Of a stretch of DNA of 64,000 bases, positions 1,218 to 18,135 are shown in pieces. The stretch lies in assembly GCA_041742075.1 (NCBI GenBank), contig JBGSJJ010000015.1:65132-129131 (forward strand), read 5' to 3'. The translations under genes were made by a program, and so were the position numbers. The DNA comes from Minisyncoccia bacterium (lineage in GTDB: Bacteria > Patescibacteriota > Minisyncoccia > Phycocordibacterales > UBA918). The notes under the pieces are model-generated. The model did no database searches. It was not told the DNA's origin and was given only the letters and a program-made list of their open reading frames with translations. The number at the start of each line of letters is the position of its first letter. Within the stretch, counting starts at the first letter, position 1.

Positions 1218-1312
1218 GAGTTTCGCTGTACTTAACCGGTGTACTACTTGACCGATTATGGTGCTTTTATTCGGCTGTGGTGATGTCTGATACATATATA
1301 TGTGTATGTGGG

Positions 1313-4300
1313 CTAGCTGGTCGGTTCTACTGCTTCTGATTCTGGTGACGCTTCAGGCTCTGGTTCGACTGGTTCAGGCTTCTCTACTACTGGTTCCGGT
1401 TCTGGAGTGGGTGGGGGCGTTTCTTCTACGACTGGATCTTCTGGTATATCTTCCGTCCCGCTACCTCCGCTTCCTCTCGACCCTCCTTCCCCACCACCTT
1501 CGCTTACTTCTGGCTCTGGTGCTGGAGCTGGTGGTGGCGTGCTTGGGCCGGTACCCGAACCGTTGCCATTAAGGAGTCGGCGCAAATCGTCAGCGGTCAC
1601 ACACACGTCTTCGATACAGAGTTGTTCGGTTTCCACAATCTCCGTCTTGATACCCGTCACGGTAAGGACCCCATCAACAAAGTTTTGGGCGAGCGTCTTT
1701 AGGCGATCCCAGAGTGACTCACCTGCTCCACCAAAGACGATGTCGGTTGAGGTTGAAGTGAGTTCACGCATTATAGTCGCAGTCCGCGCGTCATCGAAGC
1801 GACCAAGCTTTACAAACATGAGCACAGTACCAACCTGTACTTGCTGTCCGTTAACCGTAACTGACTTGGCTCTCACATTTTGGAGCACTTCGATATCTTC
1901 TAGAGTTTCTTCAGCTTCTTCTTCAAGCTCTTCGGCGATTTCAGTGTCCGGCACAACTGGCTCAGTATTCTTCACGCAGTTCGTAGCGCCAGCAGAACCA
2001 ACTGCACCACCACCACCATAGCTACAGCCATCTTGAGCTTTCGGGTCAACTGGTGTCTCAGGAATATCTGGCAAACGAATATCGTCACCAAACTGATTCA
2101 CGAACCCTTCTGAGTAGGCATACTCACCCGTAAAGTCTTCAAGCGCTGAACCAACCACCACATCGCCTGGTTCAGCTTTTTTGCCCACGCCTGGAATACT
2201 GGAAAGCGCGATTTTGTCACCCACCTTGATAGCACCATTTTCGGTTGAAAGCTTAATTGGCACACGACCGGTAAGCGCAATCGGGTAGCCCGACTCGCGT
2301 GAGCGGAGTGAGGTGTCGTCAAACCCAAGGGTCATACCTGGCTTAGTTGAAACCACACCAATGATTTTTTCAGTTGTCTCTGTTGAAGCGCGACCGACAC
2401 TAATACCACCATCTGCATACACAATCTCGCCAGGTTCGAGGTTCTCACGACTGAAGTACATTTCAGCTAAGTCAGAGTTACCAACCGTAGCGGAAACCGA
2501 AGTGATTCGTCCCGTTGTCGACGCGTTACAACTTCCGTCATTATCGACACAGAGTCCTCCGCGACCAATCTGGAGACCTGCCATAGTGGTGCCGTTACCA
2601 ATGGTGGTTGTACCGTAACTGCTGACCGTGAAGACGCCTGAACCAACGTTCTGAAGATTAATGAAGTTACCTGCGTATGAGCCCGTATCGTTACCAAAGT
2701 TCATCAAGAGACCAGAGCCAGTGAAGGTTGAGTCTTCTTGGTAGAGTGCCATGAGGGCCGCACTCGTGATAGTGCGTGAGTAGCCTCGAATCGCGTTACC
2801 TTGAATGGTACCTTCGGTTTCTGCATACACACCAGCTGGCTCATAGAGGTCGCCAGCGTCTCCCCGAGTGGTAGCGCGGAGTCCAAAGGTCCGTCCGAAG
2901 CCGGAGAGCGCCGTGCTTTCTCCAAGGGTATTGGTACCTCTATCCACCTGCACTTCAAGACCACGAATGACGTTTCCTCTACTAGTACTGTCAGCCAAAC
3001 GCAGGAGATTACCCACAATAGTGGTCGTCGCACTACCGGTGTGCACGATTTCTGTCTGGTTACCAAACTGCACGCCACCACCACTGCTGTTTGCGAGACC
3101 GAGGTACTGCATAATGCCTGCTGTTGTGGTACCAGTGACGCCAGTCGCTTGAATTGAAAGCTTACTATTTGGCGTGGTAGTTCCGATACCCATGTTACCC
3201 GCTGCAGTCACGGTAAGAAGTCTGGCGTTTGTAGACGAAGCCAGCGCAAAGATGTCAGTTGTGCCAGCAGTACCAGTTACGGTAAGTTTCGCGGTTGGAG
3301 TTGTTGATCCAATACCAAGATTGCCGAGATAATCAAGTCGCATCCGTTCTGCTGGCACTGCATTATTTGCCGTAGAGAAAACTAATGCACCTTTGTATGC
3401 GCCATTTGTGATGTCAGTAATTATTCCAGATAAACCAGCCACGTTAGTCATGCCACCAGTCGTGCGGTTTGCACCGAAAAGAAGTTGAGTTCCGTTATTA
3501 TTTGTAGCTACTTCGTCATTTTGTAGTCGAGCCAAATCAAGTGTACCAACAGCACTGTTTATAATATCTAGCTTATACGCAGGGGCAGCTGTTGAATCTA
3601 GAAAACTACCAATTCCAAGATTTCCAGTATCACGCTCAACACGAAGTAATGGCAAAGAACTCGCCTGACTAAGTATTTCAAAGCCATTTCTAGTACCATC
3701 AAACCTACTGTTATAGCGAAGAATAATACCATCGCCTCCAGTCTCCTCTAAAACTACCTGTGCGCTTCCATTACTTGATGTATTTGAAAGTCTCAATTCA
3801 ACTGGATTAGACGTGCCATTTGCCGCAGAGAGATGTAATAACGCAGTTGAGTCCGGGTTAGCTGTACCAATACCAACTGCACCTGAACTTTTTACAGTAA
3901 GCAGTCGAGAGTTGGTTGACGAAGCTATTGCAAAGATATCGCCAGCCCCAGCAGCTCCAGTAATAGCTAATCGAGCCGTCGGCGTACTAGTACCAATACC
4001 TAGATTAGTCCCAGTGAATACAAAATCTGTACTGTCAGTAAGTGCTGTCGCACCACTGTTCGTATACATAATACGGTTAGCTGTGAAGGAAGAAGGTGTG
4101 TCGGTAAGCCCAAGGAACGTACCATTACCGAGACCAAGCGTACTCGTCGCCACCCAACGAGTACTGGTACCAGTAGTTTGAAGCACCATACCTAATGTAC
4201 CGGTGGCGTTGTTGTTGTCACGAAGTGCCCCTTGGAGGTAGGTGGTGCCAGAAAGCGTGAAGCCGAGGGTAGAAGAAGCGTTCACGAGGGTGGTGTTGGT

Positions 4301-7300
4301 GAGCATTGAGGAAGACGCGCGGACAAAGCCACCACTGGTTCCTTGTTCGTCACTAAGGAGGGCGGCTAGACCATTGGAATCGGTGAAGGCTGCTGAGGTG
4401 CCGAGGGTTGAGGTAGCCACCCACCTCGTACTCGTGCCGGTGGTCTGAAGCACCATACCTAATGTACCGGTGGCGTTCACTCCGTCACGGAAGCCGCCGG
4501 TGAGACGGAAGTCGCCGGCTACTGATAGTTTGCTGGCTGGGGAGCTGGTGCCGATGCCGATGTTGCCACTACTTAAGGTGGTGCCGGTACCGTCGACACC
4601 AGTACCAAAGATGAGGTTACCGATGTTGAGTACGTCGTCTTGAGTGGTGGAGAAGGCATCGATATCGTAACCAAGGAAGATACCTCGATCTACCCCTGTG
4701 GCGTTATCAGCAACACGATATCCAATCGCGATAGTACCAGTACCGTTGTTTACTGAAAGAGCATCCCTGCCAAGTGCAATATTTCTCAAACCAGTTGAGT
4801 TTGTAAACAAGGTGTAGCTACCGATACCGATGTTGTCTATACCAGTAGTGTTAGCAGCCAAAGATTGAATACCAAGCGCTGTATTATTTGAGCCGGTAGT
4901 GTTTTGTGTAAGTGTTAGTTCACCGAGCGCGATGTTATAAGAACCACTTGTGTTTTCATCAAGAGCAAATGGTCCTATGGCCACATTATTGAGGCCACTC
5001 ATGAGTGCGGTTGAAGAGCCAAATAACGCATTTTGTCCGATGGCAGTATTATTCGTACCGGTTCCTAAGAAACGAAGTGCCCCATCACCAATCGCGTAAT
5101 TGTAGGTACCGGTGGTAATAGAGGTAGATGACGCGCCGGCGAAGAAGAAGTTATTGCGTGTTGTCGAGCCGGTTAGCACTGGAGTAGTACCCATGAAGTA
5201 ACCAGCTGAGGCGGTGCTTGAGCCATTAATTGCAAGTGTGCCGAAAACAGTTGGCGCAGTAAGGATTGACGACGATGCGCGGACGAAGCCACCACTAGTT
5301 CCCTGTTCGTCACTAAGGAGGGCGGCGAGGCCGTTTGAATCACTGAAAGCGGCTGAAGCGCCGAGGGTTGAAGTAGCGACCCAGCGGGTTGAGGTGCCAG
5401 TCGTTTGGAGAATCATCCCCAGCGTACCCCTGCTACCAGAGTTATCACGAAGACCACCGGTTAGGGTGAGGTCGGTGAGGGTTGAAGTGCCGGTCACAGC
5501 AAGGGTGCCGGTTGCGGTTAAGTTGCCGCCGAAGTAGCCACTGCCAGCGACGGTGAGTTTGCTGCTTGGAGTGGTGGTACCAATACCAACCGCACCATCA
5601 TTAGCAATCACAAATGGGCTCGTGTCACCGAGTACATCATTTACCTGAAAGCTTATATCACTCGTTTCGTTAAGAACGAACAAAGCTGCGCCAGCAGTGA
5701 TTGAACTCGTACCCACAGCGACATCTCCATTAGCTTCAACCGCAAATGATGCTTGCCACGTCGCTCCAGAGTCGTTGCTTCTTCCGATACCAAATACAGA
5801 CTCACTACCTGAAGCATCACCAAACTGAAGAGCGTGACGATTTCCACCTTCTAACGTAGCCAGAGTGAAGCGTCGAGCAGAATTAGCATCGGTTTCCATA
5901 CCGAGCGCGTACGGGTCGTTATTTTCCGCTACGCTATTGTTAAATGTCATAAGCAAATTCTGATTTCCTACCGTCAGTAGGTACGGTGGTGTGCTGGTGC
6001 CAATCCCCACATTGCCATTACCATTAATTCGTATCCGTTCCGTGTTATTAGTGCCAAGAATAAGAGCGTTATTGTTTACGTTTCCGACTACCAGTGGAAA
6101 GTCTCGACCGGCATCTTGTGCAATAAGAGCGGCTGTGCCAGAGCTAAAACCAAAGAGTGTTCCGCCTGTCTGCCCAATATAAATATCGGCCGTGTTGCCA
6201 AAGTTTCGTATGTATTGAAAACCACTCGTGGTACCATCGCCCACCTGCAATTGGTAAGCAGGATTTGCAGTACCAATACCAACATTTCCTGTCGCACTAT
6301 CGACAAACAGCGTCGGTGTTGTCCCTGTCCCCACCCTGAAGTTCCCCCACACATCAAGCTTACTCGCTGGCGTCGTAGTACCAATACCTACATCACCACC
6401 ACTGGTGACAGTAAATAGACGTGCATTTGTGGACGAAGCTACCGCAAAGATGTCACTCGTGCCAGCAGTGCCTGTTATGGCGAGCTTGGCTGATGGGGTT
6501 GATGAGCCGATGCCGATGTTGCCAAATCGATTTATAGTCATTCGCTGTTCCTCAGCACCAGTCCAGAACTGAATCGATCCTTCTGGGTCACTTGGACCAC
6601 TTGGATTACCAGCCACAAAAAGAATATTTCCTCGCTGGTCCGATAATTCATTAAAATCATTACCCCGAGCGAGGAAATAGGCACCCTGGCTAGAATTATT
6701 TGAACCTCTACCAGCGGCAAAAAAGCCGATACTAGCATTGACTGTCCCAGAATTTTCTGATGAGAGGTAGAACAGATTGTCAGTCGCCTGAGAGCCTCCA
6801 TTTAATAAAATATTATTGGTAAATTCAGTTAAACCATTAAAAGTAGTTTTGCTCGTAGAAACATCTGTAAAGAGTGCTGGCACCGTACCAGTCCCCACGC
6901 GGAAGTTCCCCCACACATCGAGCTTTGCATTGCTGTGAGCAGTAGTTGAGCCGATAGCTAAGCTATCACTGAGTGACGTGAGGTATGAAGTAGCGCCACC
7001 ATCAGTGAAGAGTGACCCGCTTCCAAACCCAAGCGTTGAGGTAGCTACCCACCTCGTACTCGTGCCGGTAGTCTGGAGCACCATACCAAGGGTACCCGTC
7101 GCGTTGTTGTTGTCTCGGAGGGCCCCTTGGAGGTAGGTGGTGCCAGAGAGGGTGAAGCCAAGAGTAGAGGAGGCGTTGATGAGCGTAGTGTTGGTGAGCA
7201 TGGAAGAAGACGCGCGGACGAAGCCACCACTCGTGCCTTGTTCATCAGACAGAAGCGCAGCGAGTTCTGATGAGTTAATGAACTGAGCTGAAAGACCGAG

Positions 7301-9619
7301 GGATGAAGTCGCAATTTGATTCCAGGTATTGCCTGCTCCACCAATGAGGAGTTGGTTCACGCCAGTGGTTGAGGTACCGGTGCCTCCACGGGTTGGGGCT
7401 AAGATACCGATGGTATCTGAAAGCGCGATGCCGAGTGTACTGGTAGCAATCCACCGTGTAGAGGTACCGGTAGTTTGCAGCACCATACCTAAAGTACCAG
7501 TGGCGTTGTTGTTATCTCGGAGGGCACCGTTTAGGTACGTCACTCCAGCCAAGGTGAGGTTGGTTGATGAGGCGTTGAAGAGTGTTGGGGCGGTGAGGAA
7601 AGAGGAGGAAGCGCGGACGAAGCCACCTGAGGTGCCTTGTTCGTCGGTAAGAGCAAGAGCGAAGTTGTCTGATGATGGTGTTGCGAGGAAGGTCGCAACG
7701 TTGGTACCAAGACCTGAGACACCAGTACTAATCGGGAGACCAGTGGCGTTCGTGAGCACACCAGAGATTGGGGTGCCAAGAGCTGGAGCGATTAAGGTTG
7801 GACTGGTGAGGGTAGAGGAAGACGCACGAACGAAGCCACCTGAGGTACCGTTCTCATCAGAGAGGAGGGCGGCGAGTTGGTCGGAGTTGGTGAAGGCTAG
7901 TGAGGTTCCTAACGTTGAAGTAGCCACCCACTGAGTACTGGTGCCGGTGGTTTGGAGGATCATCCCGAGGGTACCACCTGAGTTAGAGGCGTCACGGAAG
8001 CGACCGGTAAGGGTGAGGTCAGAGAGAGTACTCGTGCCAGTAATTGATAGGGTGCCGGTTGCAATCACGTTACCAGCGACAGTAAGCAGAGCTGACGGTG
8101 AAGTGGTACCGATACCGACGTTGCCATTTGTCATCACGGTCATGCGCGACACACCGTTCGTGAACAGACGTAAGTCGTGGTTACTAATCGTGCCAATGAA
8201 ACCTTGCGAGGTGTCTGAACGTAATTCGGTAACTACATTGTTGGTAGTATTGATAGTCCTCAGTCCAGCTTCAGCAGAAGTTCCTTCTAGATGCAGAAGG
8301 CGTGCTGGTGAAGTCGTACCGATACCGAGTCTCGTCCCGGTAAATACAAACGTGTCACTATCAGTGAGTCCAGTTGCACCACTGTTTGTAAACGGAATCC
8401 GGTTGGCGTTGTACGCACTTGGTGTATCACTCAATCCCAAAAAGGTGTTGTTGCCAAAGCCAAGGGTAGAGGTACTCGTCCAGGTAGGCTGACCGCCCGA
8501 GACAGCAAGCACCTGACCAGCTGTACCAATACTAAGCGCAGCCGGTGTGTCAATTGCCGACGCGTAAAAGAGTGAACCACTCGGCATCGACGGCATGTCC
8601 GCTAAGTCAAACAAAGACGATCCCGAGAGGTCAGACAAGTAGGCATTGTCGAGAGCACAAATAGTACCGTTACAAGAAAAATCACCGAAGTCTAAGTTTG
8701 CCAGGTTGGTTGGTCCAATTGCATTTGCCGTTATTTCTTGTCCGGTGAGTGACAGGTAATCTTCTCCGGCTAAAGTGACAGCATCATGCCCAGCTGAAAA
8801 CCCAAGTGAGCTGGTCGCTACCCACTGGGTGCTTGTACCAGTTGTGAGAAGCACCATCCCAAGCGTACCGCGACTGCTGGCGTTGTCTCTAAGGCCACCC
8901 GTAAGCGTGAGGTCGGAGAGCGTGGTAGTACCCGTGACAGCCAAGGTACCCGTTGCGGATACGCTACCCCCGAAGTAGCTGTTTCCACTGACGGTGAGTC
9001 TCGCTGACGGAGTACTTGAGCCGATACCGACGTTGCCCGAGTTAGTTATCGTAAACAAATTGGTCACTCCTGAAAATAGTTCAAGTAAGTTACCGGCTCC
9101 ATTTTGAATCAAGGTGAGAAGTGCATTTGAACTTGTGGTAGCGAGTGTACCAGCCTGGTCACTGCGTAAGAAACTGGTCGTAGCTAAGCCTCCAAACTGC
9201 TCAGCGTTTTGCGCCTCAAACGCGGCTGGTACCGTTCCGAGAATCTTTCGTGGCGACATTTCGGCATCGGCCTCGATACTCACACCAAGGTAAAGAGTTT
9301 GCGTAAAGTCGACTCCTGCGCTCGCAAAAGAGGTGGTACTGCCGAGCATAACTGAGAAGAGTCCATTTGTAACCGTCACTTCGTTTGTACCATCGAGCGT
9401 CTCTGTCCAAATAGGTGAACCAGTTGAGGCAACGGTGTAGAGTGAGAATTCCATCTCATAGGTGCCGTTTGGAACCGCCACACCAGCGTTTGTGGTGAGC
9501 TTTCCTTGGTAGTTGATAGTCGGACTTTGCGCCAGTACTTGGGTCGATACAAACAGACCACAGGCAAAAACAATCAGGGTAGCGATCGTAAGTTGCAGTT
9601 GTAGCCGGAAGTGAATCAT
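1313..9619 (-). CDS. Giant (2768 aa) secreted/surface repeat protein with a signal peptide, an N-VGIGTTxP-x-KL-type beta-helical (tail-fibre-like) motif array, seven near-identical ~33-aa repeats, and a Pro/Glu-rich C-terminal tail.
   Basis: Single uninterrupted 8.3-kb ORF. N-terminus MIHFRLQLQLTIATLIVFACGLFVSTQVLAQ is signal-peptide like. The motif GxLRDNxxxxGTLGMVLQTTGTSTRWVATSTLG occurs 7 times and AALLSDEQGTSGGFVRASSS about 6 times. GNVGIGTTSPSxKLxV motifs recur. C-terminus is ...STPPPAPAPEPEVSEGGGEGG...EPEPVVEKPEPVEPEPE. Composition is dominated by T, S, G, A, N. Confidence 0.8.
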   Translation of the reverse strand: MIHFRLQLQLTIATLIVFACGLFVSTQVLAQSPTINYQGKLTTNAGVAVPNGTYEMEFSLYTVASTGSPIWTETLDGTNEVTVTNGLFSVMLGSTTSFASAGVDFTQTLYLGVSIEADAEMSPRKILGTVPAAFEAQNAEQFGGLATTSFLRSDQAGTLATTSSNALLTLIQNGAGNLLELFSGVTNLFTITNSGNVGIGSSTPSARLTVSGNSYFGGSVSATGTLAVTGTTTLSDLTLTGGLRDNASSRGTLGMVLLTTGTSTQWVATSSLGFSAGHDAVTLAGEDYLSLTGQEITANAIGPTNLANLDFGDFSCNGTICALDNAYLSDLSGSSLFDLADMPSMPSGSLFYASAIDTPAALSIGTAGQVLAVSGGQPTWTSTSTLGFGNNTFLGLSDTPSAYNANRIPFTNSGATGLTDSDTFVFTGTRLGIGTTSPARLLHLEGTSAEAGLRTINTTNNVVTELRSDTSQGFIGTISNHDLRLFTNGVSRMTVMTNGNVGIGTTSPSALLTVAGNVIATGTLSITGTSTLSDLTLTGRFRDASNSGGTLGMILQTTGTSTQWVATSTLGTSLAFTNSDQLAALLSDENGTSGGFVRASSSTLTSPTLIAPALGTPISGVLTNATGLPISTGVSGLGTNVATFLATPSSDNFALALTDEQGTSGGFVRASSSFLTAPTLFNASSTNLTLAGVTYLNGALRDNNNATGTLGMVLQTTGTSTRWIATSTLGIALSDTIGILAPTRGGTGTSTTGVNQLLIGGAGNTWNQIATSSLGLSAQFINSSELAALLSDEQGTSGGFVRASSSMLTNTTLINASSTLGFTLSGTTYLQGALRDNNNATGTLGMVLQTTGTSTRWVATSTLGFGSGSLFTDGGATSYLTSLSDSLAIGSTTAHSNAKLDVWGNFRVGTGTVPALFTDVSTSKTTFNGLTEFTNNILLNGGSQATDNLFYLSSENSGTVNASIGFFAAGRGSNNSSQGAYFLARGNDFNELSDQRGNILFVAGNPSGPSDPEGSIQFWTGAEEQRMTINRFGNIGIGSSTPSAKLAITGTAGTSDIFAVASSTNARLFTVTSGGDVGIGTTTPASKLDVWGNFRVGTGTTPTLFVDSATGNVGIGTANPAYQLQVGDGTTSGFQYIRNFGNTADIYIGQTGGTLFGFSSGTAALIAQDAGRDFPLVVGNVNNNALILGTNNTERIRINGNGNVGIGTSTPPYLLTVGNQNLLMTFNNSVAENNDPYALGMETDANSARRFTLATLEGGNRHALQFGDASGSESVFGIGRSNDSGATWQASFAVEANGDVAVGTSSITAGAALFVLNETSDISFQVNDVLGDTSPFVIANDGAVGIGTTTPSSKLTVAGSGYFGGNLTATGTLAVTGTSTLTDLTLTGGLRDNSGSRGTLGMILQTTGTSTRWVATSTLGASAAFSDSNGLAALLSDEQGTSGGFVRASSSILTAPTVFGTLAINGSSTASAGYFMGTTPVLTGSTTRNNFFFAGASSTSITTGTYNYAIGDGALRFLGTGTNNTAIGQNALFGSSTALMSGLNNVAIGPFALDENTSGSYNIALGELTLTQNTTGSNNTALGIQSLAANTTGIDNIGIGSYTLFTNSTGLRNIALGRDALSVNNGTGTIAIGYRVADNATGVDRGIFLGYDIDAFSTTQDDVLNIGNLIFGTGVDGTGTTLSSGNIGIGTSSPASKLSVAGDFRLTGGFRDGVNATGTLGMVLQTTGTSTRWVATSTLGTSAAFTDSNGLAALLSDEQGTSGGFVRASSSMLTNTTLVNASSTLGFTLSGTTYLQGALRDNNNATGTLGMVLQTTGTSTRWVATSTLGLGNGTFLGLTDTPSSFTANRIMYTNSGATALTDSTDFVFTGTNLGIGTSTPTARLAITGAAGAGDIFAIASSTNSRLLTVKSSGAVGIGTANPDSTALLHLSAANGTSNPVELRLSNTSSNGSAQVVLEETGGDGIILRYNSRFDGTRNGFEILSQASSLPLLRVERDTGNLGIGSFLDSTAAPAYKLDIINSAVGTLDLARLQNDEVATNNNGTQLLFGANRTTGGMTNVAGLSGIITDITNGAYKGALVFSTANNAVPAERMRLDYLGNLGIGSTTPTAKLTVTGTAGTTDIFALASSTNARLLTVTAAGNMGIGTTTPNSKLSIQATGVTGTTTAGIMQYLGLANSSGGGVQFGNQTEIVHTGSATTTIVGNLLRLADSTSRGNVIRGLEVQVDRGTNTLGESTALSGFGRTFGLRATTRGDAGDLYEPAGVYAETEGTIQGNAIRGYSRTITSAALMALYQEDSTFTGSGLLMNFGNDTGSYAGNFINLQNVGSGVFTVSSYGTTTIGNGTTMAGLQIGRGGLCVDNDGSCNASTTGRITSVSATVGNSDLAEMYFSRENLEPGEIVYADGGISVGRASTETTEKIIGVVSTKPGMTLGFDDTSLRSRESGYPIALTGRVPIKLSTENGAIKVGDKIALSSIPGVGKKAEPGDVVVGSALEDFTGEYAYSEGFVNQFGDDIRLPDIPETPVDPKAQDGCSYGGGGAVGSAGATNCVKNTEPVVPDTEIAEELEEEAEETLEDIEVLQNVRAKSVTVNGQQVQVGTVLMFVKLGRFDDARTATIMRELTSTSTDIVFGGAGESLWDRLKTLAQNFVDGVLTVTGIKTEIVETEQLCIEDVCVTADDLRRLLNGNGSGTGPSTPPPAPAPEPEVSEGGGEGGSRGSGGSGTEDIPEDPVVEETPPPTPEPEPVVEKPEPVEPEPEASPESEAVEPTS
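4150..8900 (-). repeat. Intragenic long direct DNA repeats within the giant gene (units of ~100-300 bp, several segments of 30 nt or more identical).
   Basis: For example, gaagcaccatacctaatgtaccggtggcgtt is identical at 4185-4215 and 4449-4479. Related copies lie near 5395, 7060, 7450, 7925 and 8810. gacgcgcggacgaagccaccac-type copies lie near 4310, 5270, 7200, 7610 and 7810. The repeats also produce the repeated antisense ORF translations in the track (ARTKPP(L/E)VPCSS...). Confidence 0.8.
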
Positions 9620-9624
9620 ACCGG

Positions 9625-10407
9625 TTATTCGTTTGCGCTCTTAACTGGTACCAACAAAAAACGGTAGTTCTCATCGCTTTTGTTTTTGAAGATTGGCGTG
9701 ATGATGCCACTACTGTCATCTTCAAACCGAACCGTTACCGGGTCAGAAAACTGACTGCGAACCGCCTCGACTTGACTGGCCGTAGTTCCCCCGTCCAGCA
9801 AAACCAGACCTTGCTCAGATTGTTCTGCTGGGGCCATTAAGACACCATTATCGCTCGCTACTTTCTCTGGAGCTTGTTCTTGAAGCGGGATTGGCTCTGG
9901 GGACCAGAACGATTTAAACCAGCCTAAAAAGGCTACCTGCGAATTTGGCTGTACTGCTTCAGAGCCGGGAAAAACGTGGAGCAAATCAACTCCGACCACT
10001 TCGACTCCTTGCTCGATATCGGCAAAGGATAGTCGTTCTTCAATCGCAACGAATGAAAACGTCCCCATGAAAAACAGTACCGCAAAAATAGCGACACTTT
10101 GAGCGAGAGCATGTGTGGGCTTTGGGATGGTTGGTGCGGTTAGCCCGACATGAGTGCTCATGACAGCTCGTTCAATTTTTCGTTCCGTCCGCAATACTTC
10201 TTGCCTGACTGACTTCTGCTTAGCAACCTGCTCTAGAAATTCTGAGAGAGAATTTCGGTCGACGTACCACTGCCTGCCCACCAACGTTCCGAGCACTTTT
10301 CCCTCTCGCGCCAGCTTGCTCACGTAGTCACTCGTGTAGCCAAAATTTCCTGCCACCGCAGAACTTGGTTCGTACATTTTTCCATTGATTTCAAGTTGCT
10401 TGGCCAT
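9625..10407 (-). CDS. Membrane-anchored protein with an N-terminal excisionase/MerR-like HTH (HTH_17-like) domain, one TM helix and a C-terminal extracytoplasmic region. Paralog of 10951..11940.
   Basis: N-terminus ...GYTSDYVSKLAREGKVLGTLVGRQWYVD fits the HTH_17 pattern (..L.R.GK.....GR.WY.). Hydrophobic segment LAQSVAIFAVLFFMGTFSFVAI. The stop codon is 5 nt upstream of the giant gene's ATG (translational coupling). Confidence 0.6.
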   Translation of the reverse strand: MAKQLEINGKMYEPSSAVAGNFGYTSDYVSKLAREGKVLGTLVGRQWYVDRNSLSEFLEQVAKQKSVRQEVLRTERKIERAVMSTHVGLTAPTIPKPTHALAQSVAIFAVLFFMGTFSFVAIEERLSFADIEQGVEVVGVDLLHVFPGSEAVQPNSQVAFLGWFKSFWSPEPIPLQEQAPEKVASDNGVLMAPAEQSEQGLVLLDGGTTASQVEAVRSQFSDPVTVRFEDDSSGIITPIFKNKSDENYRFLLVPVKSANE

Positions 10408-10950
10408 ATACGATATTGCTAATAATTATATAATCATTCTGGTCAAAAAAGCCTGAAAAAACGGCCAAATCTGGGGACAAAAAAGTACCACTTTTTGAAA
10501 AAATTTTTACCTCTTTAATCCGGAGTACGTGAAGGTGCCGAGCATAAAAAAATCACCCCCTCAGTAGCTAACCGAATTGGTGGAAACCTCAACTTGAGAA
10601 CCAACCAGGCTCAGAGGGATTTACTGCCAGAACTCACCCCAGACAACAGTTCATCCTTCCAAGTCTACCCGGGTCTTCTCTTTCATTTTTCACTCCCTGC
10701 ACACACTCTGGGGCCACACAGAGAGAGTAAAAAATCGCATTATCGTCCAGGTACATCACATGCGCCCCAAAGGGCGCAGAAGATACCCAAACTATGAGGA
10801 TTAGGCCGGTGTAGCTAAGCAAACCAGACTAATTTTCTATACACTACTCAAGAGAAACAAGACTTCCGACCGACCACATAACCAAGCGGGACCAGCACCG
10901 CCTCCTTCTAACAATTATCTCTTCTTACACCGTACGTAGTTAATACTCGT

Positions 10951-11940
10951 TTACCCGAGATATGTTGATAAATAAGCTCTTATTAGGTCAATTCCGGTCT
11001 CGAGATTTAGTATATACCCGTTTTGAATCGTGAGTGAGTCCACAAAAATCCGATGTGAAATCGAGAGTAGACAGACCGCAAGTACGCACCCAGCAATTAA
11101 AGCACTCATTAAAATAAGCAAACGAACCCCACCTGACCAACCTCGATACTCAATTACCTGGCTCGCTGCAGGATGAACTTCAACGATTGAGTCGACAGAC
11201 TCAGGGGTCTCAAGTACCTCGAGATGTTCTACTGCTCCAGGATGCTTCCATCTTTTCTTTGAACGTTTCCCTAGTGGCGCTACTGTTACTTTTGGTTCAG
11301 TAACCGCCACAGCATCGACGGACTCGCCCTCGGCTACTTCTACGGGACTATCTTGAACTACCGTCTCTCCCGACGCCTCAACCTCCGCTACCTCGTCCTC
11401 AGCCGACTTAACACCAACCTTACCTTTAAACTTTATCTCGGACCGCTTTGAGGCTGTGAAGACGGTCTTTACCTTGTCACCGCTTACAGCTATATTTTCA
11501 GCTCCGGCAAGTTTAACCGATAGGTAGCCAGTTTTAGCCTGTTCTGGGGCTGTTTTTTCTTTAACGAGGGGAATTAGCTCGGCTTCATCAGCGCCATAAC
11601 GAGGCGTAATGATAGTGGCTCCCCGGTGACCCTCGTACCGAGGCTTATGGATCGCTACTTCGTGGAGGGCTTTATCAACGACTTTTTCTGATTCTTCAGC
11701 AACTGACTGTTGAAGGAACTTCTGAGTTACCGCCTTAGTACTGCGATAGCGAGTTTGCTTGTGCGAACGAATTGACTTCTCTTCCACGTACCAGGTTCGT
11801 CCGACGAGCTGAGCTTCTACCTTACCAGCTCGGCAAAGCTGACCGATGTAATCTGCCGTGTAGCCGAGTTCTCGGGCGATTTTATTCGCCTTAATAAAGG
11901 TTTTCTCGTTTAGGGTTAAATACTCCATACCTAGGCTCAA
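10951..11940 (-). CDS. Membrane-anchored HTH (HTH_17-like) protein, paralog of 9625..10407, with the TM helix near the C-terminus.
   Basis: N-terminus ...GYTADYIGQLCRAGKVEAQLVGRTWYVEEKS is homologous to the N-terminus of the neighbouring gene. Acidic/Lys-rich middle region. TM segment VRLLILMSALIAGCVLAVCLLSI. Confidence 0.6.
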   Translation of the reverse strand: MSLGMEYLTLNEKTFIKANKIARELGYTADYIGQLCRAGKVEAQLVGRTWYVEEKSIRSHKQTRYRSTKAVTQKFLQQSVAEESEKVVDKALHEVAIHKPRYEGHRGATIITPRYGADEAELIPLVKEKTAPEQAKTGYLSVKLAGAENIAVSGDKVKTVFTASKRSEIKFKGKVGVKSAEDEVAEVEASGETVVQDSPVEVAEGESVDAVAVTEPKVTVAPLGKRSKKRWKHPGAVEHLEVLETPESVDSIVEVHPAASQVIEYRGWSGGVRLLILMSALIAGCVLAVCLLSISHRIFVDSLTIQNGYILNLETGIDLIRAYLSTYLG

Positions 11941-12014
11941 GTATATACGGAAGAACAGAAAAAGACTCCTTACGGAGTCCCTAACCTGTGTACAAGCGAT
12001 AGCTCAACTCAAAA

Positions 12015-13439
12015 TTATTTGATGTTTTTCTTAAGCAACTCGAGAAGGAGGCTCGGGTTAGCTGATCCCTTGCTCGCTTTCATTCCCTGTCCGACCAAAA
12101 ACTGGAGAGCAGATTCTTTACCTCCTTTGTACTCCTCTACCACAGACTGATGAGTAGCAATCAGTTCAAGCACCATCGGTTCTAAAGAATCAGCTGAATT
12201 CTGTTGTAGTAAGCCACGTTCTTTGGCTATAGTCATCGGATCTAGTCCAGCAAAGAGTACTTCACTGAGTAGGTCTTTCGCCACCCTGGACGTAACAGTA
12301 CCGTCGGTAGCAAGCTTAAGGAGAGTTAGAAAAGGTACCACATGAGCAGTTGCTAGGGTCTGGTTTCCGCTCAGTAAACTCACTACGTCACTCAAGAAAT
12401 AGTTTGCTACGAAGCGTGGTTCTAGCCCAGTCGGTAGAGCGCTAAGGCATGCCTCAAAGAAATTAAAGTACTCTGGACTTCCGATAATTATTTCTATCTG
12501 ATCGCTCGTTAATCCGAGATTAGCATAATATAGCCTTATTTTACTTGGCGTCTGAAGCGAGTTCTCGTCTACACGAGTATTAAAAGTAGACACCTCGGAC
12601 AACATAAACTTCGGGATATCAGGGTCAGGAAAGTAACGGTAGTCGTCGGCCGTCTCTTTAACACGCTGACTAAACGTACGGCTCTTCTCCTCGTCCCAGC
12701 CGCGCGTCTCTTGCACAACAGTCTTACCAGCTTCGAGCAATTCAATCTGTCTCGCGGTCTCATACGTGATGGCTGACTCGACTGACTTAAAGGAGTTTAG
12801 GTTTTTAACTTCAACTTTGGTACCGAGTTCATGGGTGTTGCTAACTGAGATGTTGGCTTCAACCCGCATCTCTCCCCGCTCCATGTTTGCCTCAGATGCA
12901 CCAAGCACCCGAAGTAGTAACTGCAACTCTTTTGCAAAAAGAGCAGCCTCCTTCCCACTATGAATTACTGGCTCTGTTACCAGTTCCATGAGAGGTACCC
13001 CGGCTCGGTTGAAGTCAACTAGACTCTCGTCACCTTGATCATGCAAACTTCTCGCGGTATCTTCCTCTAGGTGAATGCGCGTAATTGAAACTCCCGCTAA
13101 CTCTCCGCCACGTACAAACGGAAATTGATACTGACTGATCTGATACGCTTTTGGAATATCTGGGTAGAAATAATTCTTTCTATCAAACTCACTGAAGTCG
13201 GCGATTGTTCCACCTATCGCAGAACCGACCTTCAGTACGAGTGCTACCGCTTCTTGGTTTACTACTGGCAGTGTCCCGGGGTGGGCCATACATACCGGAC
13301 AGACGTGTGCGTTTGGTTCCCCTTCGTGCGGATTATTTGTACAACCGCAAAACATTTTACTTTTAGTTTTTAATTCGACATGAACTTCAATGCCGACCGT
13401 TGTTTTGTATGTACTCATACCAACAATACTAACCTCCAC
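12015..13439 (-). CDS. gatB: Aspartyl/glutamyl-tRNA(Asn/Gln) amidotransferase subunit B
   Basis: MEVSIVGMSTYKTTVGIEVHVELKTKSKMFCGCTNNPHEGEPNAHVCPVCMAHPGTLPVVN... is the canonical GatB N-terminus. Full length is 474 aa. Confidence 0.92.
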   Translation of the reverse strand: MEVSIVGMSTYKTTVGIEVHVELKTKSKMFCGCTNNPHEGEPNAHVCPVCMAHPGTLPVVNQEAVALVLKVGSAIGGTIADFSEFDRKNYFYPDIPKAYQISQYQFPFVRGGELAGVSITRIHLEEDTARSLHDQGDESLVDFNRAGVPLMELVTEPVIHSGKEAALFAKELQLLLRVLGASEANMERGEMRVEANISVSNTHELGTKVEVKNLNSFKSVESAITYETARQIELLEAGKTVVQETRGWDEEKSRTFSQRVKETADDYRYFPDPDIPKFMLSEVSTFNTRVDENSLQTPSKIRLYYANLGLTSDQIEIIIGSPEYFNFFEACLSALPTGLEPRFVANYFLSDVVSLLSGNQTLATAHVVPFLTLLKLATDGTVTSRVAKDLLSEVLFAGLDPMTIAKERGLLQQNSADSLEPMVLELIATHQSVVEEYKGGKESALQFLVGQGMKASKGSANPSLLLELLKKNIK

Positions 13440-14397
13440 GCAGTCGCTCTACAAGTGCATCGCGCAGTTCTTTCACTCCTTCCCCTGTTTCTACAGACAC
13501 AACAAACACACGATTCTTAATATTGTCAATAGACTTGAGTTGCGCGTCTAAAATATCCTTATTTATAAGGTCGCTTTTAGTTAAAATAATCCACTCTTCC
13601 TTGGTGATAATCTCTGTAGAAAAGAGCTGAAGCTCGTTTCGAACTGTCGCGTAGGCTGTTTTTACGTCTTCATTTTCAAGCGAAACTAAGTGCAGGAGCA
13701 TTTTGGTACGAGAAACATGACGTAAAAATTTGTGACCTAGTCCCTTTCCTGAGGCAGCACCTTCAATCAGACCAGGAATGTCGGCTATGGTGTACTCATA
13801 GAGAGCACCTAAGTGCGGTTCAACGGTCGTGAACGCGTACGCACCAACTGGAGAAGAGGCATTTGTGAAAGCGTTTAAGAGTGTCGACTTACCAGCGTTT
13901 GGTAACCCAATGAGTCCCACGTCTACCACGAGAGAAAGGTCGATTTGAAAATCTCCTTCTTCACCAAAACCACCTTTGGTTGTTTCTACCGGTGACCTGT
14001 TTACAGACGACTTGAAGTGTTCGTTACCGAGGCCTCCATTTCCACCTTTAAGAATTTTTTCTACGGCACCTGCCGAGAAGAGTTCGTACACTCTATTTCG
14101 ACTTATGTCAGTTACGACTGACCCGATAGGTACGTCGATATAGAGATCAGCCCCAGCGTGACCCCACTGACTTTGCTCACGGCCATGCTCGCCACTGCCT
14201 GCAGTAAACTTTTTGTTGCCGGTGTACTTAGCTAAGCGGTTGAGGTCAGGTACAGCCCGAAGGTACACGTCACCCCCGCGACCACCATTGCCACCAGCCG
14301 GTCCGCCTCTCGGGCGAAACTTCTCTTGAATCCAGCGGACAACGCCATTACCACCGTTTCCGGCTTTGGCATAAATTGTTAGTTCATCGACAAACAT
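13429..14397 (-). CDS. obg: GTPase Obg/CgtA (Obg fold N-domain plus GTPase domain; no C-terminal extension)
   Basis: MFVDELTIYAKAGNGGNGVVRWIQEKFRPRGGPAGGNGGRGGDVYL is the Gly-rich Obg fold. GLIGLPNAGKSTLL is Walker A. DIPGLIEGA is present. Overlaps the gatB start by 11 nt. Confidence 0.92.
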   Translation of the reverse strand: MFVDELTIYAKAGNGGNGVVRWIQEKFRPRGGPAGGNGGRGGDVYLRAVPDLNRLAKYTGNKKFTAGSGEHGREQSQWGHAGADLYIDVPIGSVVTDISRNRVYELFSAGAVEKILKGGNGGLGNEHFKSSVNRSPVETTKGGFGEEGDFQIDLSLVVDVGLIGLPNAGKSTLLNAFTNASSPVGAYAFTTVEPHLGALYEYTIADIPGLIEGAASGKGLGHKFLRHVSRTKMLLHLVSLENEDVKTAYATVRNELQLFSTEIITKEEWIILTKSDLINKDILDAQLKSIDNIKNRVFVVSVETGEGVKELRDALVERLRGG

Positions 14398-17922: not shown

Positions 17923-18135
17923 ATTGTGATGAGAGTATTAGTGAATAACTATTCGACCGCTGACTTCTCATTTGTGAAAGAACAAACTGAAGAGAATGTC
18001 TGCTTACTACTATTATCACTGTGAAAAAAAACTAATACAACAAAAAATAAAATAAATGTGTGGATAAAATATTTTAGTTAAAAATATTTTTTAAAAAAAT
18101 AAATTTATTTTTTAAATTTTCTCTCACGACTTTTT
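17923..18135 (-). promoter_or_regulatory. AT-rich (>80% A+T) intergenic region with A/T tracts and palindromes. Presumed strong promoter/UP-element region for the Lys-rich gene, and 3' end region of murB.
   Basis: aaaaatattttttaaaaaaataaatttattttttaaatttt. No ORF. Confidence 0.35.

What the first reader, a model, noticed from the sequence alone, without database searches (positions are those of the whole stretch)
9625..11940. Two paralogous membrane-anchored HTH proteins translationally coupled to the giant adhesin gene: candidate transmembrane regulatory or novel accessory system
The two genes share an N-terminal excisionase/MerR-like HTH (…GYT[AS]DY[VI]..L.R.GKV…VGR.WYV…). They then diverge. 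Each has a single TM helix, mid-protein in one and near the C-terminus in the other, and an extracytoplasmic tail. The downstream copy stops 5 nt before the giant gene's ATG. This suggests a one-component transmembrane transcription regulator (ToxR/CadC-like logic but with an HTH_17 fold), or a DNA-tethered membrane factor that controls or assists the surface protein. I do not recognise this architecture and gene context as a described system.
Basis: partly seen in the sequence, partly recalled or inferred. Interest (0 to 1): 0.65.

Follow-up and report, generated by a model that had tools for sequence, protein, structure and literature searches.

The report
Membrane HTH proteins anchoring giant fibre
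Two related membrane proteins with a DNA-binding-type domain inside the cell sit directly in front of a giant secreted fibre gene in hundreds of ultrasmall (Patescibacteria) bacteria; in some species the same module is fused to the fibre, so it is probably the fibre's membrane base, an arrangement I found described nowhere.

Summary
On the minus strand, gene A (9625-10407, 260 aa) and gene B (10951-11928, 325 aa) share an N-terminal excisionase/MerR-type winged helix (44% identity, E=1e-12). AlphaFold pLDDT is about 95 and the best fold matches are Xis, BldC and RacA. Each protein has one TM helix, and A stops 5 nt before the 2768-aa gene.

In 86 non-redundant related loci from Paceibacteria the order Obg-GatB-B-A is invariant. 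Among 32 loci with at least 8 kb downstream, 28 carry the fibre gene. A's stop lies -20 to +11 nt from the fibre's start in 36 of 37 cases.

The giant protein is a secreted fibre resembling the chimeric fibres of Bdellovibrio: a signal peptide, a conserved N-domain, then a hypervariable body.

In 8 species the A-type module (HTH, basic helix, TM) is fused to the giant protein. A's ectodomain and the fibre's signal peptide and N-domain are then all missing. Other lineages have tandem-HTH giants of up to 5533 aa, or a single ancestral HTH-TM-ectodomain gene.

A DnaA-box-like 9-mer (TTATnCACA) lies about 60-70 nt upstream of A in 75% of loci, of B in 26%, and of other genes in 2%.

My best reading is that these proteins form the membrane base of the fibre, with a cytoplasmic domain that probably binds DNA. 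Any regulatory role is untested. I found no description of this arrangement.

The parts
10951..11928 (-). Gene B (325 aa; the ORF list extends it to a TTG at 11940). Membrane-tethered winged-helix protein: HTH, long helix, about 180 aa of disordered linker, a TM near the C-terminus and a 35-aa outside tail.
11779..11928 (-). B winged helix (aa 1-50), beta-beta-helix-helix-beta-beta. Invariant positions in the family are Y23 T24 D26 Y27 G29 Q30 L31 R33 K36 G43 R44 W46.
   Evidence: pLDDT 95-98. Foldseek best match is Pukovnik Xis (prob 1.00, TM 0.67-0.69, rmsd 1.8 A), followed by BldC, RacA and RdfS. Alignment of 83 members. HTH_17 is weak in the window protein (E=0.056).
11569..11610 (-). Conserved short linear motif in B's disordered cytoplasmic linker (R-Y-x-x-D-x-x-E-L-I-P; Y111 and P120 invariant, D114 and L118 in at least 90%).
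11065..11133 (-). B transmembrane helix (aa 266-288).
10954..11061 (-). B extracytoplasmic mini-domain (beta-hairpin 290-307 plus helix 309-323).
   Evidence: pLDDT about 92-95
11987..11995 (-). DnaA-box-like 9-mer TTGTACACA, 58 nt before B's ATG.
11961..11982 (-). Terminator-like hairpin after gatB (GGGACTCC-GTAA-GGAGTC followed by a T run). It lies between the 9-mer and B's -10-like TATATA (11942-11947).
10408..10950 (-). 543-nt B-A spacer. Only the last 80 nt or so (promoter-proximal) are conserved with close relatives.
   Evidence: No Rfam match. Fold z-score 0.24. No ORF shared among the 26 long spacers. Alignment and blastn.
10472..10480 (-). DnaA-box-like 9-mer TTGTCCCCA, 64 nt before A's ATG.
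   Evidence: Motif present at -90..-46 in 58 of 77 A genes, against 15 of 659 other genes.
10425..10430 (-). TATAAT -10-like box, 17 nt before A's ATG. It sits inside a short palindrome (ATTATATAAT) that in many relatives is the centre of a 28-34-nt inverted repeat.
9625..10407 (-). Gene A (260 aa): HTH, basic helix, mid-protein TM, variable linker and a conserved C-terminal ectodomain.
10258..10407 (-). A winged helix (aa 1-50).
   Evidence: pLDDT 94-97. Foldseek matches Pukovnik Xis, TraN, pSK1 Par, RacA, RdfS and BldC. HTH_17 E=0.031, TIGR01764 E=0.074, excisionase PHROG E=0.0017.
10144..10257 (-). A long basic juxtamembrane helix (aa 51-88; QKxxRxExLRxERKxER).
10039..10119 (-). A transmembrane helix (aa 97-123), N-in by the positive-inside rule.
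9640..9810 (-). A C-terminal ectodomain (GLVLLD...VRxxFSDPVxVxF..G.ITPxF...YRFLLVPV).
   Evidence: Present in 61 of 64 separate A proteins and never inside giant proteins. The model there is of low confidence.
9620..9624 (-). 5-nt gap (CCGGT) between A's stop codon and the fibre gene's ATG.
   Evidence: Sequence. The corresponding gap is -20 to +11 nt in 36 of 37 loci.
1313..9619 (-). Giant gene (2768 aa): a secreted chimeric fibre with a hypervariable body.
9215..9523 (-). Conserved fibre N-domain (aa 33-135, INYQGKLT...WTE...NGLFSVMLG...EMSPRKILGTVPAAFEA). It directly follows a signal peptide with an AxA-type site (VLA|QSP).
   Evidence: Found in 58 loci. 62% mean identity. NCBIfam NF053851 Bdello_MAT_N E=1e-5 here and 1e-6 to 1e-9 in 10 of 10 relatives, all below the 60-bit cut-off.

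Best explanation
A and B are single-pass, N-in membrane proteins. Their cytoplasmic end is an excisionase/MerR-type winged helix followed by a long basic helix. They are the two halves of a duplicated ancestral gene (HTH, linker, TM, ectodomain) that belongs to the locus of a giant, secreted fibre resembling the MAT fibres of Bdellovibrio.

A is made from the same message as the fibre and is translationally coupled to it. It serves as the fibre's membrane base. Its small conserved ectodomain is inferred to hold the fibre's conserved N-terminal domain at the cell surface. Its cytoplasmic winged helix, and that of B, is inferred to bind DNA. This would tie the fibre base to the nucleoid or to its own locus, and possibly feed back on transcription of the two HTH genes.

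Shown: the fold, the topology, the invariant synteny, the tight coupling, the fusions with complementary domain loss, and the cis-motifs specific to these two genes.
Inferred: ectodomain-fibre docking, DNA binding, and any regulation.
For: 1. Fold. Both HTH domains model at pLDDT 94-98. Their best matches are DNA-binding excisionase/MerR-type winged helices: Xis 4j2n (TM 0.67-0.69, rmsd 1.8-1.9 A), BldC, RacA, RdfS, TraN and pSK1 Par. HTH_17 is the only recurrent Pfam family.

2. Topology. One TM each, with K/R on the N-side.

3. Synteny. Obg-GatB-B-A in all 86 non-redundant loci. Complete or near-complete genomes of about 1 Mb carry the same locus. The fibre gene is present in 28 of 32 loci with at least 8 kb downstream: 19 adjacent, 7 later, 2 fused.

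4. Coupling. A's stop to the fibre's start is -20 to +11 nt in 36 of 37 loci.

5. View from the fibre side. Of 71 metagenome loci that carry the fibre N-domain, 45 have an A-type gene directly upstream and 9 more have one further upstream.

6. Rosetta-stone fusions. In 8 species the giant ORF itself starts with the A-type HTH, basic helix and TM, and there is no separate A gene. These fused giants lack both A's ectodomain and the fibre's signal peptide and N-domain.

7. Wider family. There are 3800 cluster representatives. They include proteins of 5533, 3277, 1974 and 1155 aa with one or two HTH-basic-helix units before the TM.

8. Ancestral form. Other lineages have a single gene with a B-type HTH and linker motif, a TM and an A-type ectodomain at the same position.

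9. Secreted fibre. In split loci the fibre has a cleavable-looking signal peptide, so it needs a surface partner. The Bdellovibrio MAT paper states that the homologous N-domain 'would presumably tightly bind a surface element' that is still unidentified (PMC10769870).

10. cis-elements. TTATnCACA lies at -90..-46 upstream of A in 58 of 77 loci, of B in 22 of 86, and of other genes in 15 of 659.
Against: - No experiment or multimer model links A's ectodomain to the fibre N-domain.
- The ectodomain is very divergent (mean pairwise distance 0.70), while the fibre N-domain is more conserved than GatB (0.34 against 0.39). The partial mirror-tree correlation is only 0.23.
- 17 of 71 fibre genes lie in other contexts without an HTH gene nearby.
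- The window proteins fall below the Pfam and TIGRFAM cut-offs for HTH_17/excisionase.
- By my own hand count from the translation (not a tool result), A's HTH domain has about zero net charge, which is unusual for a DNA binder.
- B-A is also invariably linked to the housekeeping genes obg and gatB, so part of the synteny could be inherited gene order.
- The 9-mer equals the DnaA-box consensus, so DnaA rather than A or B may bind it.
Confidence: 0.45

Rival explanations
1. One-component transmembrane transcription regulators, the first reader's leading idea (ToxR/CadC logic). A and/or B sense something outside the cell through their ectodomains or through the fibre. While membrane-bound, they bind promoter DNA to switch on the fibre operon and their own genes.
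For: - The fold is a DNA-binding winged helix.
- The architecture is N-in: HTH, TM, then ectodomain.
- A 9-mer specific to the promoters of just these two paralogous genes sits at a fixed distance.
- An inverted repeat is centred on the -10 box upstream of A in about 40 of 77 loci.
- B's recognition helix is invariant across the clade.
Against: - The HTH is not the OmpR/PhoB type.
- A lies in the same operon as its presumed target.
- In fused forms the 'sensor' would be a fibre of 3000-5500 aa.
- The 9-mer matches the DnaA-box consensus.
- The arms of the inverted repeat vary in sequence between species while staying complementary. That pattern suggests a hairpin rather than an operator for an invariant recognition helix.
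- The palindrome is weak in the window itself.
Confidence: 0.2
2. The winged helix is a protein-binding adaptor rather than a DNA binder, as in RodZ. A and B would link a cytoplasmic partner (cytoskeleton, divisome, Sec machinery) to the envelope, and thereby position or export the fibre.
For: - RodZ has the same layout: HTH, basic juxtamembrane segment, TM, then an outside beta-rich domain (my own knowledge).
- B has a long disordered linker with an invariant short linear motif, which is typical of partner binding.
- A's HTH has about zero net charge (my own hand count from the translation, not a tool result).
- The locus sits in a conserved block with murB, secA, obg and gatB.
Against: - There is no Xre-type HTH or DUF4115 (RodZ_C) match.
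- All close structural neighbours are DNA-bound proteins.
- Tandem HTH-basic-helix units resemble DNA-binding arrays more than a single docking domain.
Confidence: 0.15
3. Inherited gene order only. A and B are lineage-specific housekeeping membrane proteins that merely happen to lie next to a hotspot for giant surface genes.
For: - The Obg-GatB-B-A order is invariant, so the block is ancestral.
- Some fibre genes occur elsewhere without an HTH gene.
Against: - Independent fusions of the A-type module to giant proteins, with loss of the matching domains.
- Near-zero intergenic distance in 36 of 37 loci even though the fibre body is hypervariable.
Confidence: 0.05

Closest known systems
ToxR / CadC / TcpP-type one-component transmembrane transcription activators
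   Same: An N-terminal cytoplasmic winged-helix domain, a single TM and an extracytoplasmic C-terminal domain. The gene lies next to the locus it may act on. DNA would be held at the membrane.
   Different: Those proteins carry the OmpR/PhoB-type domain (Trans_reg_C). Here the fold is excisionase/MerR-type (HTH_17). The partner is a giant fibre, the same module occurs fused to the fibre, and neither DNA binding nor regulation has been shown.
RodZ (HTH, basic juxtamembrane segment, TM, periplasmic domain; binds MreB)
   Same: Nearly the same linear layout as A, including the basic helix before the TM and a small beta-rich outside domain.
   Different: RodZ has an Xre-type HTH and a DUF4115 C-domain, and neither was detected here. 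RodZ is not coupled or fused to surface fibres.
Small excisionase/MerR-like DNA binders: Xis (Pukovnik), BldC, RacA N-domain, RdfS, TraN
   Same: Same fold (TM 0.55-0.70, rmsd about 2 A over 46-57 residues). RacA also tethers DNA to the cell envelope, through DivIVA.
   Different: Those proteins are soluble. Here the domain is followed by a long basic helix and a TM, sometimes in tandem, and it is attached or coupled to a huge extracellular protein.
Bdellovibrio MAT (mosaic adhesive trimer) chimeric fibres (PMC10769870)
   Same: The giant protein has a signal peptide, then a conserved beta-rich N-domain with weak but consistent homology (NF053851, 11 of 11 proteins). A variable fibre body follows, and some relatives carry S74 chaperone/protease domains. 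Phage tail-fibre similarity is also present.
   Different: Scores are below NCBI's cut-off and cover only the first half of the profile. The proteins are 2-4 times longer. The host is a Patescibacterium without an outer membrane. No HTH-TM partner is described for Bdellovibrio MATs, whose surface receptor is unknown.
RsgI-type anti-sigma factors / Notch-like receptors (signal released by regulated proteolysis)
   Same: A large extracellular binding part is joined through one TM to a cytoplasmic domain that acts on transcription.
   Different: No cleavage sites, protease partners or anti-sigma domains were identified. This is an analogy only.

Membership tests
HTH_17 / excisionase-type winged helix (PF12728, TIGR01764; MerR superfamily) | Sequence match to the family profile at or above the curated cut-off | tested here: inconclusive
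   The window proteins score 15.0 and 14.2 bits against a cut-off of 27. TIGR01764 scores 13.4 against 28.8. HTH_17 is nevertheless the only recurrent family: 11 of 13 A-type N-termini (best E=3e-7) and 13 of 83 B-type (best E=1.4e-4). Many relatives carry a precomputed PF12728 hit.
HTH_17 / excisionase-type winged helix (PF12728, TIGR01764; MerR superfamily) | Fold: helix-turn-helix followed by a beta-hairpin wing, superimposable on Xis/BldC/MerR N-domains | tested here: met
   AlphaFold pLDDT 94-98. Foldseek top matches are Pukovnik Xis (prob 0.99-1.00, TM 0.67-0.69, rmsd 1.8-2.0 A), BldC (TM 0.69-0.70), RacA and RdfS. Foldseek E-values are weak (0.06-1) because the domain is only about 50 residues.
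HTH_17 / excisionase-type winged helix (PF12728, TIGR01764; MerR superfamily) | Binds double-stranded DNA | not testable with these tools
   Inferred from the fold only.
ToxR/CadC-like transmembrane transcription activators | OmpR/PhoB-type winged-helix effector domain (Trans_reg_C) | tested here: not met
   No such Pfam hit in A, B or their families. The fold matches excisionase/MerR instead.
ToxR/CadC-like transmembrane transcription activators | N-in single-pass topology with an extracytoplasmic C-terminal domain | tested here: met
   One TM each. The positive-inside rule holds for A. A has about 135 aa outside and B about 35 aa.
ToxR/CadC-like transmembrane transcription activators | Binds specific promoter sites and activates transcription while in the membrane | not testable with these tools
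   Only indirect: a 9-mer specific to the A and B promoters. DnaA could equally bind it.
RodZ | Xre-type HTH (HTH_25) plus a C-terminal DUF4115 domain | tested here: not met
   No such Pfam or NCBIfam hit.
MerR-family transcription regulators (full length) | Winged helix, a long antiparallel coiled-coil dimerisation helix and a C-terminal effector-binding region; match to the MerR profiles | tested here: not met
   A long helix follows the HTH, but it leads into a TM. There is no MerR/MerR_1 hit and no effector domain.
MAT (mosaic adhesive trimer) chimeric fibre family (for the giant protein) | Signal peptide immediately followed by the conserved beta-rich N-terminal domain (NF053851) | tested here: inconclusive
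   The signal peptide plus conserved domain layout is present in 58 loci. NF053851 matches 11 of 11 tested proteins at E=1e-5 to 1e-9, but at 25-38 bits against a 60-bit cut-off and only over profile positions 3-81 of 162.
MAT (mosaic adhesive trimer) chimeric fibre family (for the giant protein) | Variable, swappable fibre body and tip; an S74 chaperone/protease domain in a subset; trimeric fibre | tested here: inconclusive
   Domain content differs between orthologous positions: Beta_helix/NosD, LVIVD, and Peptidase_S74 in L004, L007 and L009. The window protein has no S74 hit and only tail-fibre PHROG similarity. Trimerisation is not testable here.

The most novel reading that the evidence does not exclude
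The HTH-basic-helix-TM module is a new kind of transmembrane coupler that joins a giant host-contacting fibre directly to the chromosome. Pulling on or binding of the fibre at the host surface would be transmitted to DNA in one of two ways. The tethered winged helices (three per trimeric fibre, six in tandem forms) could be repositioned, or they could be released by intramembrane proteolysis as in Notch. In this way an ultrasmall episymbiont with very few regulators would sense attachment.
Probability: 0.12. Interest if true: 0.9.

Novelty: new variant of a known kind. Interest (0 to 1): 0.68.

Why it matters
Patescibacteria make up a large share of bacterial diversity and live attached to host cells. 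How they attach, and how they sense attachment, is largely unknown.

This locus is a single-copy, core feature of a large Paceibacteria clade. The species-representative genome collection holds 338 matches, and the wider HTH family has 3800 protein clusters. The locus links a hypervariable giant fibre to a conserved membrane module carrying a DNA-binding-type domain.

If the module is the fibre's base, it identifies a cell-surface partner for fibres of the MAT type. That partner is explicitly unknown in Bdellovibrio.

If the winged helix binds DNA, this would be a physical connection between an extracellular fibre and the chromosome. It would also be a simple contact-sensing route in organisms that have few regulators.

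Both ideas can now be tested directly with purified domains and multimer modelling.

Tried and rejected
- **Structured RNA or hidden gene in the 543-nt B-A spacer.** Rfam found nothing at gathering score, and the only E-value hit was a chance snoRNA match. The fold z-score is 0.24. The 26 long spacers share no ORF. Only the last 80 nt or so are conserved. Rejected.
- **Sequence relatives with solved structures.** Profile searches of both families against PDB sequences found none.
- **Co-evolution of A's ectodomain with the fibre N-domain.** The partial mirror-tree correlation is 0.23, against 0.15 for the HTH control. This is too weak to use.
- **The 9-mer as a general promoter element.** It occurs upstream of only 2.3% of other genes, and the window as a whole is not enriched (21 observed, 22.6 expected). 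Rejected.
- **The locus as a replication origin.** Cumulative GC skew declines almost steadily across the window, apart from a local rise over the giant gene at about 4-10 kb, and shows no origin-type turning point. Rejected.
- **RodZ, ToxR or full-length MerR membership.** The defining domains are absent.
- **The 4-gene secreted cassette seen in some relatives.** It is absent from the window.
- **Literature.** Searches for a described system found none.
- **Word-indexed profile search with fused N-termini.** It returned only A-type proteins of about 240 aa. The giants appeared only in the exhaustive search.
Full report
**1. Observation**

The minus strand carries, in order, obg (13429-14397), gatB (12015-13439), gene B, a 543-nt spacer, gene A and a 2768-aa ORF (1313-9619).

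- A is 9625-10407 (260 aa).
- B is listed from a TTG at 11940. The identical database protein has 325 aa and the family alignment starts at MEYLTL, so B is 10951-11928.
- A and B align only over their first 50 residues (44% identity, E=1e-12).
- Hydropathy gives one TM segment each, at A 99-124 and B 264-299. Basic residues flank the N-side of A's TM and acidic residues the C-side, which indicates N-in.
- A's TAA is followed by CCGGT and then the giant gene's ATG, with no Shine-Dalgarno sequence.

**2. Anatomy of the two proteins**

AlphaFold models place a beta-beta-helix-helix-beta-beta winged helix at residues 1-50 of both proteins (pLDDT 94-98). A long helix follows, to residue 84 in B and 88 in A.

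Against the PDB the best matches for both are mycobacteriophage Pukovnik Xis (prob 0.99-1.00, TM 0.67-0.69, rmsd 1.8-2.0 A), BldC, RacA, the RdfS excisionase, TraN and the pSK1 Par DNA-binding domain. All are excisionase/MerR-type DNA binders.

At the sequence level the window proteins only graze HTH_17 (E=0.03 and 0.056), TIGR01764 and excisionase PHROGs. HTH_17 is nevertheless the only family that recurs among relatives: 11 of 13 A-type and 13 of 83 B-type.

A continues with a TM helix (97-123), a variable region, and a conserved C-terminal ectodomain of about 60 aa (FSDPVxVxF...ITPxF...YRFLLVPV). That ectodomain was modelled with low confidence.

B continues with about 180 disordered residues that contain an invariant short motif (Y111...D114..L118.P120). 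Then come a TM helix (266-288) and a confidently modelled outside hairpin plus helix of 35 aa. Neither family has a sequence relative in the PDB.

**3. Distribution and synteny**

Relatives come almost only from Patescibacteria metagenomes and are unannotated. The species-representative genome collection holds 338 matches, named Kaiserbacteria, Nomurabacteria, Parcubacteria/Paceibacteria and Minisyncoccia.

In every one of the 86 non-redundant loci analysed, the order is Obg-GatB-B-A. Usually Wzy_C/TPR, MurB, SecA and a holin-like gene lie upstream. Complete or near-complete genomes of about 1 Mb show the same single locus.

Of 32 loci with at least 8 kb downstream, 28 carry the fibre gene: 19 directly after A, 7 after a few intervening genes, and 2 fused. 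Most of the remaining loci simply end within 1-5 kb, often inside an open reading frame. The distance from A's stop to the fibre's start is -20 to +11 nt in 36 of 37 loci. Co-transcription and translational coupling are therefore a conserved property, not an accident of this window.

**4. What the giant gene is**

Pfam sees nothing significant in the window protein. In all split loci, however, the giant protein begins with a signal peptide ending in an AxA-type site. A highly conserved domain of about 100 aa follows immediately (INYQGKLT...WTE...NGLFSVMLG...EMSPRKILGTVPAAFEA). The domain shows 62% mean identity and is more conserved than GatB.

This domain hits NCBIfam NF053851 (Bdello_MAT_N, 'mosaic adhesive trimer family chimeric fiber protein') in 11 of 11 proteins tested. 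E-values are 1e-5 to 1e-9, which is below the curated cut-off.

The rest of the protein is hypervariable between species: Beta_helix/NosD, LVIVD, C1q, and Peptidase_S74 in some. In the window it resembles phage tail fibre (PHROG E=1.7e-10).

The Bdellovibrio paper reports that all 21 MAT fibres carry such a domain right after the signal peptide. It also states that the domain 'would presumably tightly bind a surface element' that has not been identified (PMC10769870).

**5. Fusions and evolution**

In 8 species (L007, L028, L032, L035, L039, L044, L053, L068) there is no separate A gene. The giant ORF itself starts with an A-type HTH, basic helix and TM, and these align along their whole length with A's N-terminus.

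These fused giants lack A's ectodomain (0 hits in ORFs above 600 aa, against 61 of 64 separate A proteins). They also lack the fibre's signal peptide and N-domain. The two domains that would have to meet in the split system disappear together once the link is covalent.

An exhaustive search with A residues 1-95 finds 3800 cluster representatives at E<=1e-3 and 540 at E<=1e-10. Among the best 145 are proteins of 5533, 3277, 1974 and 1155 aa, and many carry two tandem HTH-basic-helix units before the TM.

Seen from the fibre side, 45 of 71 metagenome loci have an A-type gene directly upstream and 9 have an HTH gene further upstream. The other 17 have none and lie in other contexts.

In some of those lineages a single gene combines a B-type HTH and linker motif, a TM and an A-type ectodomain. 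A and B are therefore the products of duplication and division of labour of one ancestral fibre-locus gene.

**6. cis-elements**

A TATAAT box sits 17 nt before A's ATG and is conserved in close relatives.

Across the clade, a 9-mer with consensus TTATnCACA (identical to the DnaA-box consensus, by my own knowledge) lies 50-85 nt before the start codon. Counting either orientation at -90..-46, it occurs upstream of A in 58 of 77 loci, of B in 22 of 86, and of all other genes in 15 of 659 (Fisher p=6e-55 and 4e-13). The loci are related, so these p-values overstate independence. The window has TTGTCCCCA (10472-10480) before A and TTGTACACA (11987-11995) before B.

In about 40 of 77 loci the -10 box is the centre of a 28-34-nt inverted repeat that ends at the ATG. 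Its outer arms differ between species but stay complementary. In the window only a 10-nt palindrome remains.

Which protein binds the 9-mer (DnaA, or A/B) cannot be decided here. Nor can it be decided whether the repeat acts as DNA or as RNA.

**7. Mechanism**

The evidence best supports A-type modules as the membrane base of the giant fibre, with B as the sister half of the ancestral protein. The supporting points are coupling, fusion, complementary loss, and a secreted fibre that needs a partner.

Two steps are inferred rather than shown. The first is that A's ectodomain docks the fibre N-domain. The contrast in conservation, and the weak mirror-tree signal (0.23 against a control of 0.15), argue for caution on this step. 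The second is that the cytoplasmic winged helices bind DNA. This follows from the fold alone.

The promoter motifs shared by just these two genes leave room for autoregulation or for control by DnaA. I put about 0.45 on 'fibre base with a DNA-binding cytoplasmic end'. I put 0.2 on a true ToxR-like regulator, 0.15 on a protein-binding (RodZ-like) adaptor, 0.05 on mere inherited synteny, and the remainder on readings not listed, including a proteolytic Notch-like sensor.

**8. Comparison and novelty**

The layout works like ToxR/CadC or RodZ. Membership in both fails on the defining domains. The HTH belongs structurally with Xis/BldC/RacA. The giant protein is a distant, oversized relative of Bdellovibrio MAT fibres.

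Full-text searches found no description of an HTH_17-TM protein coupled or fused to giant surface proteins. I rate it a new variant of a known kind (a membrane-tethered winged-helix protein) in a new partnership. The unexcluded possibility is that it represents a new fibre-to-chromosome coupling device.

Noticed in passing
window 28000-50000: A low-GC island (0.34-0.42, against 0.46-0.51 elsewhere) is full of surface-glycan genes. These include nucleotidyl transferases, a Polysacc_synt flippase, epimerases/dehydratases, a DegT aminotransferase, a TPP enzyme, a GT2 and a GT10 fucosyltransferase. It is probably a horizontally acquired or fast-evolving glycosylation cluster.
   Followed up: partly
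window 10408-10950, and the B-A spacers of L001-L090: The B-A spacer comes in two size classes: about 20-140 nt in most loci and 330-600 nt in 26 loci, including the window at 543 nt. The long spacers share no ORF, no Rfam family and no sequence beyond the promoter-proximal 40-80 nt. It is unexplained why compact genomes keep them.
   Followed up: yes
upstream of the A-type gene in related loci, e.g. L057 (-41..-3), L071, L079, L048, L020: A 28-39-nt inverted repeat is centred on the TATAAT box and ends at the start codon. Its arms covary between species, for example GACGGAATACCTATATAcTATATAGGTATTCCGTC. It could be a leader hairpin, a processing site or an operator. It is degenerate in the window.
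   Followed up: partly
window 18059-18067 (-): A perfect DnaA-box sequence, TTATCCACA, lies in the 429-nt intergenic region between murB and secA. Its significance was not examined.
   Followed up: no
window 1-1296 (-): Directly downstream of the giant gene another secreted protein begins (MSIVAFTVLFFGLFVSLADAQ...). It is more than 431 aa long and runs off the window. In the closest relative, L001, the gene at this position is a second giant of 3660 aa.
   Followed up: no
L004, L025, L034, L038, L050, L055, L057, L064, L082, L088, L089, L146, L162: A conserved cassette of four secreted or membrane proteins (about 225, 335, 257 and 460-520 aa, one with fn3) lies between A and the fibre gene or just after the fibre. 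In L109 and L121 one of them appears joined to the fibre ORF. The cassette is absent from the window.
   Followed up: partly
P0323 (5533 aa), P0347 (3277 aa), P0328, P0318, P0239-P0241: Relatives carry two tandem copies of the HTH-plus-basic-helix unit before the TM. Some are giant proteins and some are about 330-390 aa.
   Followed up: partly
window 11569-11610 (-), B residues 107-120: An invariant short motif (RYxxDxxELIP) lies in an otherwise disordered, fast-evolving cytoplasmic linker. The same motif is kept in the single-gene ancestral form (LKYESxxxPxxPELKK). It looks like a docking peptide for an unknown partner.
   Followed up: no
L011-L172 (contig ends): Many contigs stop within 0.3-3 kb after A, inside the open fibre ORF. 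The repetitive giant genes evidently break metagenome assemblies, so databases under-represent them.
   Followed up: no
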